A stretch of 64,000 nt of DNA from the NCBI GenBank assembly GCA_964016885.1, contig OZ024740.1, positions 10,850,001 to 10,914,000 on the forward strand, written 5' to 3'. The stretch comes from Eledone cirrhosa (lineage: Eukaryota). The notes beneath the pieces are model-generated. The model was not told the DNA's origin, searched no databases, and was given only the letters and a program-made list of their open reading frames with translations. Positions within the stretch are counted from its first letter, which is position 1. Each line of letters starts with the position of its first letter. Positions 8,772 to 30,113 of the stretch are shown here, piece after piece. The translations under genes and the position numbers were made by a program.

Positions 8772-9395
8772 GATGAGTTGATATGATAATACAATCATAT
8801 AAGGCAAAGAATAATTCAAAGCTCAAATGTGATTATTCTATTAAATAATGTAATTAAACCCTAGTTATTTTATTCATATATATATATATTATATATATAT
8901 ATATATATTATATATACAAATGGAAGTTTAGTAAAATCGAAGTTTTGGCTGTGGCCAAGCTAACGATATACAATCAGGCATGTGCAGCAAAGCACTCGAT
9001 AAGGTTGTGTCCCCTTAGAGTAATAACTGTTTCTACTTTAGGCACAAGGCCAGCAATTACCCAGTGCATTACTGGTACTTTATTTTATCGACCCCTTAGA
9101 GTAATAACATACGTTAGATAGCTTGACAAATTGAAGACTGCGACCGTTGACCCAGCCACATGAACTAAAGCAATGAGAAAACCAAATCAGGTAATTGACA
9201 TAGAGAGAGAGAGAGAGAGAGAGAGAGAGAGAGAGAGAGAGAGAGAGAGATTGGAGTATGTGTTGGTTGCTTACTGACATTTCAGTATGCAGATTAGAGA
9301 ACTCAACGTAGTGCGCAGGTGGGTCTGTTTACTCCAGAGTCATTTAAATGATATGCCGCCATTATGTTTTCCTGTTTTTTCTGTATTAGTTCTAG

Positions 9396-9452
9396 CTGCC
9401 TGATGAGGTCATAGCTGTTGAATAATGGTTATCACCAAAATATATATTGCAG
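9396..9452 (+). ncRNA. Type I hammerhead-like motif with G12A (probably inactive)
   Basis: CTGC-CTGATGA-GGT..hairpin..ACC-AAAA-TATATAT-T-GCAG. Confidence 0.55.
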
Positions 9453-9975
9453 TGAATATGTATAAACAAAGTTAATTTTAACCTGCTGACTTACACATCT
9501 TGTTTATAAATAAATATATATATATATATATCCTCATCATCATATATATATTACTTTATTTATATACAAAATATTAAACTGATGCCAAAATCTCGATCTG
9601 TGGGGATATAAGCTAGACGGACTAAAATAAGTGAAATTTATTCCTATAGTTCCCCAACAAATGTTTCTGGAATCAAGAAACAATATAAATCATTCCAACA
9701 CAATGGAACAACAAATATTGGAAGAATTTGAATTCTGTCATCAAGAAGAGAATTGTTTGGAATAAGAGAAGACATTGAATATAAAGCATATATACGATAT
9801 CATTGCTGAGACTGCATGCTGTTCAACATGATACGTCATTGAATTACTAAATGAATATATCTTTCTCAATGTATTAGGACATTACGTTTATAATTTATTT
9901 GTATAGTTTATCCTTTCATTGAGATGTATAACTATTAGAGAGATAACTTTTTAATATATATATATATATATATAT

Positions 9976-10242
9976 AGTATTAAGGGTACTATTTATGGTT
10001 ATGTATGCAATAAAACCTTTAATGGTAATATATTATATATACACAAACCCTAAATAGTGAAAGATAGTCACTAATTCCTATCCTATTACCAGTAAGATAA
10101 ATAGCTCAATGTAATAACATCAGTTGTTTTACAGAGCAGTTATAAAGAGATTACAATAATCAAAGTTCAGTTTAAGTCATTTATTTGCTTATAAGCAAAT
10201 AAATGACTTAAACTGAACTTTGATTATTGTAATCTCTTTATA
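9976..10242 (-). mobile_element. Short (TA)n-embedded element (homologous to ~29231-29441) ending in a 102-bp perfect palindrome
   Basis: Its reverse complement aligns by eye with 29231-29441. Palindrome 10141-10242 is centred on gcttA|Taagc. Confidence 0.8.
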
Positions 10243-10526
10243 TATATATATATATATATATATATATATATATATAACATGCCCACACTCCTCCCACTGT
10301 AAAGTGGTTGTGTAGATGCCACGGAAAAAAATCACCCACCACTCACTGTAAATGAGGTTGGTGTTAGGAAGGGCATCCAGCTGTAGAAATCAAGCCAGAA
10401 TCAGTTCCCGTATGAGCAAGACAAGGTCAGCTGACTGGACACTGCCCACAATAGGACAACCCGTCTAACCCATGCTAGCGTGGAAGAACGGACGTAAAAC
10501 AATGATGATGATGATATATATATATA

Positions 10527-11212
10527 TAAGTAAGTCAATTTTCATAACTTTCTTATTTACGTCTTTCATATAATTGTTCTGCATTCCCCTGCATTGAACT
10601 ACAAAGTTACTAAGACAAAACATATATATTTGCTAGCATAGGTATGCATCTGTATACATATGTCAGTAGATATATTAATTCTTTATAATTATCTCCAAAT
10701 TATTTGTTGAGCAAAATTTGCCGAAATTACTACTGTGACTGATAGTAGTGGCTAGGCTCTGTCTTAATAGCACCCCCACTCCAAGCTGATTAACCTCAGT
10801 GTCACGTGATTGATTCTTTTGAATTTGCCACTTGACCAAGTAGGCAGTGAATTTTTCAATGTCTTGGAATCTAGCCCCGCTCGCTTTTTTCCATCCACTG
10901 AATTATTTTTATATAAGTTCCCAGTGTCCCCGCATTGCCTGGAAGCTTAGCTGAGATTAGACTCCCTGATGACGTAAGGCTTCTCTATAGTTATATTACG
11001 TAACTATATTTATCCCCTTACAGAAACTAATTAGTTGGAGTGAAATTTTAGTAAGTAAGTCAATTTTCATAACTTTATTATTTACGTCTTTCATATAATT
11101 GTTCTGCATCCCCCTGCATAGAACCACAAAGTTACTAAGACAAAACATATATATTTGCTAGCATAGGAATGCATCTGTATACATATGTCGGTAGATATAT
11201 TAATTCTTTATA
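10527..11212 (+). mobile_element. Non-autonomous Penelope-type/retrozyme-like element: ~160-bp direct repeats (10527-10687, 11052-11212; period 525) around a hammerhead ribozyme
   Basis: Direct repeats start taagtaagtcaattttcataac. Flanked by TA tracts, no ORF, internal hammerhead. Confidence 0.75.
10961..11041 (+). ncRNA. Type I hammerhead ribozyme with intact core; predicted cleavage after 11036 (GUU)
   Basis: Stem I ACTCC/GGAGT, core CTGATGA, stem II GTAAGG/CCTTAC with an extended tatagtta/taactata hairpin, GAAA, palindromic stem III ACTAATTAGT. Confidence 0.8.
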
Positions 11213-11638
11213 TATTACTCTTTTACTCTTTTACCTGTTTCAGCCATCCGGCTGAGGCCATGCTGGGGCACCGCCTATATATATATATATATATATATAT
11301 ATATATATATATATATATATTAAAATACCAGATTAAAGTTTAAGCAAAGAATCGCTGCTTTCACCCTTAACAGATCTTCTGAAACTAAAAAAATCAATCT
11401 GTGAACGTAGAAGTAAATATTTCGAAAAACGTTGCAACCGAAGGTAAACAGGAAGACGATACTTTGGTTTGTGAAAACGTTCCCTGGCAATGAACGGAAA
11501 AAAGCGAAGATAATATGTCGTTGATGAGAACAATTACACACAAAACCAAACCATGTTTATAGTATAAATGAAGTCGTAGACTAATATTCTATTTGGGAAA
11601 CCGAATGATTCTCAGCTTCAAAGTTAAGAATAATGTAA

Positions 11639-28321: not shown

Positions 28322-28386
28322 TATTTTATCTGATGAAAGCACACCATAATTTAACTTGGTGTCCTTGAAATATGTATAATGAAATA
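28322..28386 (+). ncRNA. Type I hammerhead ribozyme with intact core, in an AT-rich (TA)n-embedded element (~27780-28515)
   Basis: Stem I TATTTTAT/ATGAAATA, CTGATGA, stem II AAG.ACACCA/TGGTGT.CTT, GAAA, stem III ATATGTAT, cleavage triplet AUA. Confidence 0.72.
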
Positions 28387-29189
28387 AATATGGTTTTATA
28401 AATATAGTTTCCATTTGCATATCGTATTTTTACTCCAATAATTTGTTGAGTGCTTTATATCAGTTATAAAAATATTTGATTGTTGTATCCCAACAATTTA
28501 GATAGAACTTCTACATATGTATATATCTATGTATGTATATATATGTATATATCTATGTATGTATATATATATGTATATATCTATGTATGTATATACATAT
28601 CTATGTATGTATATATGCGTATATATCTATATCAAAGGCATATATTGAGTTAGAAACTCAAAATAGTCTCTTACAATAAATTAGCTCTAGGAAAGAGATG
28701 TATATATCTATGTATCATCATCATCATCATCGTTTAACGTCCATCTTCCACGCTTGCATGGGTTTGGACGCGAATTTTCCCACTTGAGGCAAGATTGGTT
28801 GTCTTGCTCATATAGGACTGTCTGGCTGGTTTTCTACAGCTGGATGCCCTTCCTAACACCAACCACGTTTACAGTGTGGACTGGGAAGTTTTTACCGTGT
28901 TACCTACACGGCCACATTACAGCGTGGACTGTGTGTTTTTTTGTCGTGACACCTACACGACCTCATTTGTTTCGGACTGGATGTTGTGGTACCAACATAG
29001 CTTCACATTGAAAGGGGTGGTGAGGATGGGGTGGGGTAGTGGGACGGGGGTGTATTTTTGTTAAGAGGTGCCTACTCACTGTAGGTTTCACTTTGTACAT
29101 AGGCAAGGCGGGTCTTCTGTATTACTGTGTAGCGTATATATATATATATATATATAGGAGGTCAAGTATGTTAAAAATCACTGAATAAT

Positions 29190-29236
29190 TGCTCCGAAGA
29201 CTCCAAACCTCGGTTTGGAAGAAACGATTGTAAGCA
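29190..29236 (+). ncRNA. Type I hammerhead (U4C variant) in short element 29157-29441
   Basis: TGCT-CCGAAGA-C-TCCAAACC tc GGTTTGGA-A-GAAA-CGATTGT-A-AGCA. Confidence 0.7.
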
Positions 29237-29612
29237 GATAAATGATTTAAACAGAACTTTGTTTCATGTAATCTCTATATAACTGCTCTGTAAAACAACT
29301 GATGTTGTTACATTGAGCTATTTATCTTACTGGTAATAAGATAGTAATAAATTACTGTCTTTCACTATTTAGGGTATAATATATATATAACTATAAAAGG
29401 TTTTAGTATATACATAACCATAAATAGTATCCTTAATACTATGTATATATATATATATATATATATATATATATATATATATATATATATATATATGTAT
29501 ATATATATATATATATATATATATATATATATATATATATATATATATATATATGTATATATATATATATATGTAAAGAAGAAATTAAAAGATGGTTAAA
29601 AAAGTTCCATAT

Positions 29613-29680
29613 ATTTTATTATGCGCATTTCGAAAGCAACATCATCCTGGGACAAAAATTGTGTTCTCATCAGATAAAAT
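29613..29680 (-). ncRNA. Type I hammerhead ribozyme with intact core, in a ~120-bp insert between (TA)n tracts
   Basis: Minus strand: ATTTTAT-CTGATGA-GAA...TTC-GAAA-TGCGCAT-A-ATAAAAT; palindromic ATGCGCAT stem III. Confidence 0.72.
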
Positions 29681-29722
29681 CCTAAACCTTATATATATAT
29701 ATATATATATATATATATATAT

Positions 29723-30113
29723 ATGAAAACAGGGAGAAAGAGACGATTATTAGAAAGAAAAATTTTTTTTTTTCCTTTTTTGTTTCTCTCTCTCTTTTTT
29801 CTGGGTTAGAAAATGATTAAAACGCAATGTTTTACTTTGTGTAAAGTGTTAAGGTATTAGTTGATTTATTTATTATTTAACAATGGCATTTATTTATCTA
29901 TTTATATATTTAATTATTGTCTATTACCGGTTTCAGCATTTTTATGCATTATCAAATGATAGTGAAATGTATTAGTGTGGTGTCGCACATGTTAAACAGA
30001 AGGTGCAGAAAGAATTCTAATCATTTTCTAACCCAGAAAAAAGAGAGAGAGAAACAAAAAAGAAAAAAAATATATTTTTCTTCCCAATAATCGTCTCTTT
30101 CCCCCTGTTTTCA
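29723..30113 (-). mobile_element. Short element with ~95-bp inverted ends and a degenerate hammerhead (29921-29962)
   Basis: 29723-29818 is inverted at 30017-30113. Minus strand reads TTGATAA..GCAT/ATGC..GAAA-CCGGT-A. Flanked by (TA)n. Confidence 0.6.

What the first reader, a model, noticed from the sequence alone, without database searches (positions are those of the whole stretch)
9250..30113. Cluster of dissimilar short non-coding elements, each with a type I hammerhead motif and lodged in or beside (TA)n tracts
Seen: motifs with the order stem I-C(T/C)GANGA-stem II-GAAA-palindromic stem III-stem I'. Intact cores are at 10961-11041(+), 28322-28386(+) and 29613-29680(-); a U4C variant is at 29190-29236(+); degenerate ones are at 9396-9452(+), 9650-9752(-) and 29921-29962(-). 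Their stems share no sequence but the architecture is conserved. Known: Penelope-like elements carry such hammerheads with palindromic stem III, thought to act as dimers, and non-LTR retrozymes exist in invertebrates. Inference: a diverse set of non-autonomous ribozyme retroelements (or pseudo-LTR remnants) mobilised by the neighbouring Penelope RT/GIY-YIG and targeted to (TA)n.
Basis: partly seen in the sequence, partly recalled or inferred. Interest (0 to 1): 0.75.

Follow-up and report, generated by a model that had tools for sequence, protein, structure and literature searches.

The report
Penelope-type hammerheads: Hydra ends, retrozymes
The hammerhead motifs, predicted to be self-cutting RNAs, are really there, but five of the seven are cut-short tail ends of ordinary protein-coding Penelope-like jumping genes; two sit in small non-coding tandem repeats, and copies of one of these stop unusually often just after the predicted cut, likely a trace of the RNA being cut in living cells.

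Summary
All seven motifs are present; a descriptor finds 5 in the interval against 0.013 in shuffles (0 of 300). Each belongs to an abundant dispersed family. Longer copies of five (9396, 28322, 29190, 29613, 29921) run into an RT/GIY-YIG gene: four Hydra-clade, one Neptune-like. They are truncated pseudo-LTR ends, not independent non-autonomous families. Only 10961 (A, about 525 nt) and 9650 (G, about 490 nt) are non-coding tandem monomers, that is, non-LTR retrozymes; a third (26906) was missed. The 29921 core is a conserved U3-A8 variant, not decay. (TA)n targeting holds. In family A, 74 of 98 insertions are two-armed, with fixed outer ends at +176 and +61 from the predicted cut. Partner arms stop 6.2-fold more often at 0 to +10 (p=2.5e-6), though most arms read through. 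A shares a tail hairpin with the four Hydra families, not with E or the neighbouring Penelope P1 (P2 untested), so a Hydra enzyme is the likelier driver. Cleavage and expression are untested. Known kind; the scan noted the same pattern on other DNA of this genome.

The parts
9250..9348 (-). Family F: inverted tail arm
9352..9515 (+). Family F: 3' end (pLTR) of an old Hydra-clade PLE; hammerhead 9395-9453, this copy has lost G12
9564..9886 (-). Family G: old non-coding tandem monomer (about 490 nt); damaged hammerhead 9652-9748
9890..9955 (+). Family G: inverted tail arm
9954..10242 (-). Relative of family B (86-87% identical); 102-nt perfect fold-back centred at the predicted cut site
10527..11212 (+). 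Family A retrozyme: 1.3 copies of a 525-nt non-coding monomer; starts 15 nt after a predicted cut, ends at the +176 site
10961..11041 (+). Family A hammerhead: stem I 5 bp, CUGAUGA, C.A mismatch closing a 6-bp stem II, GAAA, 10-nt palindrome, predicted cut after 11036
11101..11128 (+). Bulged hairpin just after the +61 arm end of family A (a second one follows the +176 end, about 10693-10712)
   Evidence: coordinates derived from monomer positions
18770..19253 (+). Older copy of family H (about 84% identical); its hammerhead has lost GAAA
20877..25541 (+). Autonomous PLE P1: inverted 3' part, 856-aa RT+GIY-YIG frame (22444-25014), pLTR hammerheads at 25386-25420(+) and 21042-21076(-)
26705..27147 (+).
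27145..28515 (+). Family C: 5'-truncated 3' UTR/pLTR of a Hydra-clade PLE; hammerhead 28322-28386
29156..29462 (+). Family B: 3' end of a Hydra-clade PLE; U4C hammerhead 29189-29237 with a C.A mismatch
29573..29680 (-). Family D: 3' end of a Hydra-clade PLE between two (TA)n tracts; hammerhead 29613-29680
29722..30180 (.). Family E: two-armed 3' end of a Neptune-like PLE (minus arm 29722-30015, plus arm 30015-30180); U3-A8 motif 29923-29957(-)
30234..33069 (-). Autonomous-type PLE P2 (broken frame); pLTR motif 30497-30532 with core CAGUUGA

Best explanation
The interval is a pile of separate insertions into TA tracts, likely all made by Penelope-like (PLE) enzymes: five motifs are truncated 3' ends of RT/GIY-YIG elements (four Hydra-clade, one Neptune-like) and two sit in non-coding tandem monomers that likely borrow a Hydra-type enzyme. 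Inferred mechanism: the endonuclease nicks both strands of a (TA)n tract; each DNA end primes reverse transcription at its own fixed internal site of the RNA (+176 and +61 nt after the predicted cut in family A), each just before a small bulged hairpin; the two cDNAs stop at variable places and join head to head. The hammerhead likely cuts a fraction of the RNAs in the cell (probably as a dimer), making a 5' end where the enzyme runs off; most templates are uncut multimers or circles and are read through. Shown: motifs, linkage to genes, tandem structure, fixed ends, TA flanks, excess of stops, conservation. Inferred: cleavage, dimer, template form, identity of the enzyme.
For: Linkage: E 14 of 30 loci carry the family's RT/EN in sense upstream; B 3 of 30 extend past 1.4 kb, frames seen in L201 and L203; C 4 of 5 extended loci show RT/EN frames; D 3 of 4 extended loci share 1.2-1.4 kb of RT/EN at 85-88%; F 2 of 25 share an EN at 84.6% and the 3' UTR. 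Hydra marks seen (DKT and CxH in C; YRDD in C and D; CxCX5C linker in B, C, D; CxxC in B, C, D) as defined in PMC8557442 section 11 and its supplement alignment. A: period 525; 64 of 81 arm pieces end at +61 or +176. Junction-chosen sample, first 100 of 175 places, 98 mapped: 74 two-armed, 65 of 74 partner arms end at +61, 62 of these 65 run into TATA (background 11.5%). Partner arms stop 6.2-fold more often at 0..+10 (12 stops, p=2.5e-6) and never at -15..-1; the best 11-nt window of the monomer is -2..+8. Arms begin exactly at the cut in L249, L251, L332 and end exactly there in L257, L362. Ribozyme positions: 0 of 44 polymorphic against 40 of 481 elsewhere (p=0.026; per-site test p=8e-4). 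Arms of one insertion differ by 3.0%, separate insertions by 6.0%. The hairpin follows both A ends and the short ends of B, C, D, F; random sites 1%.
Against: Most arms pass the site (50 of 65 partner arms, 52 of 74 forward arms that reach it). Forward arms also stop 3.3-fold more often at -15..-1, before the cut, and a second hot spot (3.7-fold) lies at -144..-134, so structure stalls or microhomology also make pile-ups. In B, 4 of 30 forward arms stop at -16..-22, inside stem II. Covariation within F and G does not exceed shuffles (138/500, 69/500). A, B and G lack the directly closing G10.1-C11.1 arrangement (C.A mismatch next to the core), which might lower activity. PMC11167929 found cleavage unnecessary for insertion in vitro and no reads ending at the site; the 2026 preprint found cleavage in 1 of 9 elements. 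F rests on few old copies.
Confidence: 0.8

Rival explanations
1. All seven are independent non-autonomous ribozyme elements moved by the neighbouring Penelope P1/P2.
For: No coding sequence adjoins any motif in this window; P1 and P2 lie among them; A and G are non-coding.
Against: Five families continue into their own RT/EN genes elsewhere; P1 lacks the hairpin that A shares with Hydra ends.
Confidence: 0.04
2. The hammerheads are passive structure: the excess of stops near the cut site comes from RT stalling at the folded, uncut ribozyme and from joining at nearby palindromes, and no cleavage happens in vivo.
For: Forward arms stop before the cut as often as after it; a second hot spot exists; two symmetric junctions sit on a 6-nt palindrome at +6; B forward arms stop in stem II; PMC11167929 saw no RNA ends at the site.
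Against: Partner arms show 12 stops after and 0 before the site; two arms have their 3' end exactly at the cut, without TA; core positions are conserved across subfamilies.
Confidence: 0.25
3. A (and G) are not independent: they are tandemly expanded pLTRs of an autonomous element not reached by my samples.
For: Only part of the family was read (about 130 A insertions; 25 G loci); the 2026 preprint derives retrozymes from pLTRs; one A copy is joined directly to a Hydra RT fragment (L209).
Against: In the A loci read the arm either loops back into the monomer or is truncated; arms reach 2.6 monomers; the L209 joint falls inside the ribozyme.
Confidence: 0.1
4. Tandem A arrays grow as DNA (slippage or unequal exchange) and are not retrotransposed.
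For: Repeats within an insertion are more alike than between insertions.
Against: Dispersed on many contigs, short (at most 2.6 units seen), with fixed internal 3' ends, TA flanks and inverted partner arms.
Confidence: 0.02

Closest known systems
Hydra clade of C-terminal-EN PLEs (Craig et al. 2021, PMC8557442; read: abstract, passages, sections 11 and 12, supplement passages including Hydra-1_Obim)
   Same: DKT motif, CxCX5C linker, CxxC/CxH around the EN, hammerhead in the pLTR, (TA)n targets, inverted 5'-truncated arm plus tail.
   Different: Tails here are about 85-190 nt, against 30-40 bp in that paper's general PLE scheme; some hammerheads have a long stem II and a mismatch next to the core. 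Placement is by motifs and by eye against the published alignment, not by a tree.
Metazoan non-LTR retrozymes (Cervera and de la Pena 2020, PMC7229834, passages and Discussion; Li, Clavereau and Pollet 2026, bioRxiv 10.64898/2026.07.22.740005, parts 1-3 of 5)
   Same: Non-coding AT-rich tandem monomer with one type I hammerhead per unit; PLE mobilisation proposed.
   Different: A is 525 nt, mostly short two-armed insertions with two fixed internal ends; expression and circles untested; no parent pLTR found. The parts I read do not describe insertion ends.
Minimal and variant PLE hammerheads (Cervera and de la Pena 2014, PMC4209133, parts 1-2 of 4)
   Same: Type I order, palindromic stem III, unpaired base after A9, U3-A8 variant, many sequence families per genome, most as single truncated copies.
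   Different: Stem III palindromes up to 10 nt; an unpaired base on both sides of stem II (C.A in A, B, G; U.U in E, H).
Poseidon PAc of Anolis (Frangieh et al. 2024, PMC11167929, parts 1-2 of 4)
   Same: Both strands nicked and extended in AT-rich DNA; two internal start sites that define the tail.
   Different: There the start site did not differ between strands and no RNA ends were found at the cut; here the two arms use different sites and DNA copies are enriched for ends at the cut.

Membership tests
Type I hammerhead (PLE type) | Core CUGANGA...GAAA...UH (or C3-G8/U3-A8 variant) with stems I and II | tested here: met
   A, B, C, D, H in the window; F and G in family majority; E only with a 2-bp stem I
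Type I hammerhead (PLE type) | Self-complementary stem III | tested here: met
Type I hammerhead (PLE type) | G10.1-C11.1 pair closing stem II next to G12 | tested here: inconclusive
   Met in D, F, P1; A-U in C; a mismatch intervenes in A, B, G, E, H and is conserved in A (C 122 of 128, A 143 of 144)
Type I hammerhead (PLE type) | Covariation of stems | tested here: inconclusive
   Within F and G not above shuffles; stems kept with different letters across families, but selected by the descriptor
Type I hammerhead (PLE type) | Self-cleavage | not testable with these tools
   Only indirect: excess of arm ends and conservation
Hydra-clade PLE (B, C, D, F) | RT followed by C-terminal GIY-YIG, continuous with the pLTR | tested here: met
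   Pfam did not recognise the B and C pieces
Hydra-clade PLE (B, C, D, F) | DKT motif, CxCX5C linker, CxxC and CxH in EN | tested here: met
   DKT and CxH in C; linker and CxxC in B, C, D; F decayed, one linker Cys changed
Hydra-clade PLE (B, C, D, F) | Insertion in (TA)n | tested here: met
   TA at 3' end: B 47 of 70, C 27 of 32, D 27 of 34, F 13 of 20; background 11.5%; the B and D queries held some TA, so these are biased upward
Hydra-clade PLE (B, C, D, F) | Placement in the RT tree; RWK motif | not tested
   no tree built
Neptune-like PLE (E) | CX2-5CxxC linker and CCHH-type EN after the RT | tested here: met
   does not separate Neptune from Nematis
Non-LTR retrozyme (A, G, H) | Head-to-tail non-coding monomers, one type I hammerhead per unit | tested here: met
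   A; H; G tail found in sense upstream in 6 of the 10 copies aligned
Non-LTR retrozyme (A, G, H) | Expressed, self-processed, circular RNA | not testable with these tools
   no RNA run listed
Non-LTR retrozyme (B, C, D, E, F) | Non-coding tandem monomer independent of a gene | tested here: not met
   no fixed tandem period; gene-linked copies

The most novel reading that the evidence does not exclude
Family A is a Hydra-driven retrozyme whose genomic copies are a fossil record of its RNA cycle: a hammerhead closed by a C.A mismatch cuts in the germ line, one RNA (circle or multimer) is copied from two hairpin-marked start sites by the two ends of one TA break, and the hairpin is the handle by which non-coding circles recruit the Hydra enzyme.
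Probability: 0.4. Interest if true: 0.65.

Novelty: new member of a known kind. Interest (0 to 1): 0.4.

Why it matters
As filed, the cluster is ordinary for a genome full of PLEs. The useful part is family A: the papers read propose, but do not show, that PLE enzymes move retrozymes, and leave the role of PLE hammerheads open. A gives exact predictions (cut nucleotide, two start sites, a 20-nt hairpin, a candidate enzyme clade) that an in vitro assay of the published type can test.

Tried and rejected
Rfam scan of the whole window: no hammerhead family at E<=1, only microsatellite-driven miRNA hits. First descriptor missed A, B and H because it allowed no unpaired base beside stem II. My first recalled label 'Naiad' for B and C was wrong: Naiads have an N-terminal EN. 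Hydra hits upstream of G copies L218 and L219 are separated by TA tracts and belong to other insertions; L217 not inspected. The gene upstream of D copy L212 does not match the other three and was dropped. tblastn hits to residues 262-298 of one C frame come from an unrelated inserted repeat and were ignored. A and G monomers show no significant alignment (score 40.5, shuffles up to 43). Covariation tests in F and G negative against shuffles. The first two A samples were biased for arm length and not used for the stop-rate test. Rows dropped from that test: 2 of 100 unmapped (L326, L389), 1 identical twin (L329), 9 partner arms with other outer ends.
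Full report
Setting. The window is G000:C1:10850001-10914000 of a 3.0-Gb genome. No call names the organism; earlier AI notes call it cephalopod.

Observation. All seven are in the sequence. With a descriptor allowing one unpaired base on each side of stem II, the interval holds 5 complete motifs (A, B, C, D and an unlisted one, H, at 26906) against 0.013 per local dinucleotide shuffle; 0 of 300 shuffles reach 5. 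Looser settings add the two pLTR hammerheads of the Penelope P1 and motif E. Rfam does not see them. C and D share stem I and their 3' flank. E has the core TTGATAA in 31 of 33 motif copies, the U3-A8 variant described in PMC4209133. The window's F and G are damaged copies of families with an intact majority core.

Families. Each element is a dispersed repeat: first-look candidates A 3245, B 3232, C 2534, D 1313, E 2133, F 2807, G 842, H 2589, of which 40 each were scored; these are not copy numbers. The fetched loci hold many more hammerhead types (529 hits, 55 clusters, 1.43 Mb, enriched for my queries), so the cluster is not special.

Five are ends of coding elements. E: 14 of 30 loci carry the family's RT and GIY-YIG in sense directly upstream, with a CX4CxxC linker: Neptune-like by motif. 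B: 3 of 30 extend beyond 1.4 kb; extended, they share 2.3 kb at 96-97% and show RT and EN frames. C: 4 of 5 extended loci show RT/EN frames. D: 6 of 30 have a sense EN within 1.5 kb; 3 of 4 extended loci share 1.2-1.4 kb at 85-88%. F: L156 and L216 share an EN at 84.6% over 253 nt and the following UTR, L174 part of the UTR. The B, C, D, F proteins carry the Hydra marks of Craig et al. (section 11; supplement alignment; seen). That paper reports canonical hammerheads and (TA)n targets for Hydra. No tree was built.

Two, plus the missed H, are non-coding tandem monomers. A has a period of 525 nt in the window copy and arms up to 2.6 units. In G the tail recurs in sense upstream of the ribozyme in 6 of the 10 copies aligned, period about 450-490. 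H has a period of about 430. They fit the structural definition of non-LTR retrozymes; expression is untested.

Anatomy of A insertions. An exact pattern for the long end plus TA has 175 matches (control 0). I fetched the first 100 listed; 98 mapped. 74 have an inverted partner arm; 65 of these end at +61 from the predicted cut while the first arm ends at +176, and 62 of the 65 run into TATA (background 11.5%). The arms mostly meet with 1-6 shared bases. Arms and successive units of one insertion differ by 3.0%, separate insertions by 6.0%; subfamily sites disagree in about 10% against 47%, so both arms come from one template or one source locus; circle and multimer are not told apart. This matches the two internal start sites and two-strand priming shown for Poseidon PAc, except that here each arm has its own site.

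Signs of cutting. Per base at risk, partner arms stop 6.2-fold more often at 0..+10 (12 of 65 stops, p=2.5e-6) and never at -15..-1; forward arms 2.7-fold at 0..+20 (13 of 96 stops). The top 11-nt window of the monomer is -2..+8. Three insertions have an arm starting exactly at the cut and two have an arm whose 3' end lies exactly there without TA (L249, L251, L257 are from the earlier, biased sample). The 44 ribozyme positions hold no subfamily polymorphism against 40 of 481 elsewhere, the C.A mismatch included. Against: forward arms also stop 3.3-fold more often just before the cut, a second hot spot lies at -144..-134 (possibly a transcription start; inference), most arms read through, B forward arms stop in stem II (4 of 30) although 3 of 23 B partner arms end at -1..+5, and within-family covariation is not above shuffles. 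I put in vivo cutting of a fraction of A RNAs at about 0.7.

Which enzyme. A bulged hairpin (NTC-stem-loop-stem-TT or TA-GAN) starts 2-10 nt after both A ends and after the short ends of B, C, D and F; it is absent after the ends of E, P1, G and H, and occurs within 12 nt of 1% of random sites. The lead came from earlier scan notes and the descriptor was fitted after seeing these families. One A copy is joined directly to the middle of a Hydra RT gene (L209), which might be a template switch; one case. So a Hydra enzyme is the likelier driver of A; the drivers of G and H are open.

Comparison and novelty. Hammerheads in pLTRs, their palindromic stem III, solitary truncated copies, Hydra's TA targets, inverted arms with tails and retrozymes are all published. 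I did not find the end statistics or the hairpin in the parts read, nor in five library searches; closed and unread supplements may bear on this. The scan's own notes report the Hydra reading, the two-armed pattern, the hairpin and the excess at the cut on other DNA of this genome; two notes found the match to the cut atypical or chance in their families. These are unchecked AI notes, not support; none matched A by sequence.

Verdict. Observation confirmed; interpretation partly supported. New members of known kinds; interest 0.4, carried by family A.

Noticed in passing
window 30497-30532 (-); also L008, L015, L022, L202: The pLTR of P2 has a hammerhead-shaped motif whose core reads CAGUUGA (U4A and A6U), the same in 5 other places; not described in the paper parts read.
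   Followed up: partly
L332 (G000:C1:299079297-299082322): Three joints in one A insertion begin exactly at the cut; in one, the sequence just 5' of stem I is joined to the 3' product, as if the ribozyme had been skipped.
   Followed up: partly
family A monomer, -144..-134 from the cut (about window 10893-10903): Second pile-up of arm 5' ends with a sharp edge near position 382; might mark a transcription start.
   Followed up: partly
   Followed up: partly
window 9954-10242: Fold-back copy of a B relative whose 102-nt perfect palindrome is centred on the predicted cut.
   Followed up: partly
L209:6900-8410: 5' part of another Hydra element with its own hammerhead, joined mid-RT to an A copy.
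   Followed up: partly
window 33420-46534 and 48372-64000: Two long satellites (48-nt and 21-nt based); the 48-nt unit resembles an internal repeat of the abundant element at 6395-6690.
   Followed up: no
window 1-5730: Tandem array of an AT-rich unit of about 1.5 kb.
   Followed up: no
window 15152-15352 and 16150-16290: tRNA-derived SINE-like heads (Rfam tRNA hits at 16159-16216 and 15286-15343).
   Followed up: no
window 15711-18562, 25590-26700: Broken non-LTR retrotransposon frames (RT and endonuclease-like; RTE label recalled).
   Followed up: no
window 11635-11887 and 12530-12748: Inverted pair of 34-nt tandem arrays flanking a GC-richer core; possibly a non-autonomous DNA transposon.
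   Followed up: no
window 13009-13377: 122-aa open frame of ordinary protein composition with no repeat match in the window; possibly a host exon.
   Followed up: no
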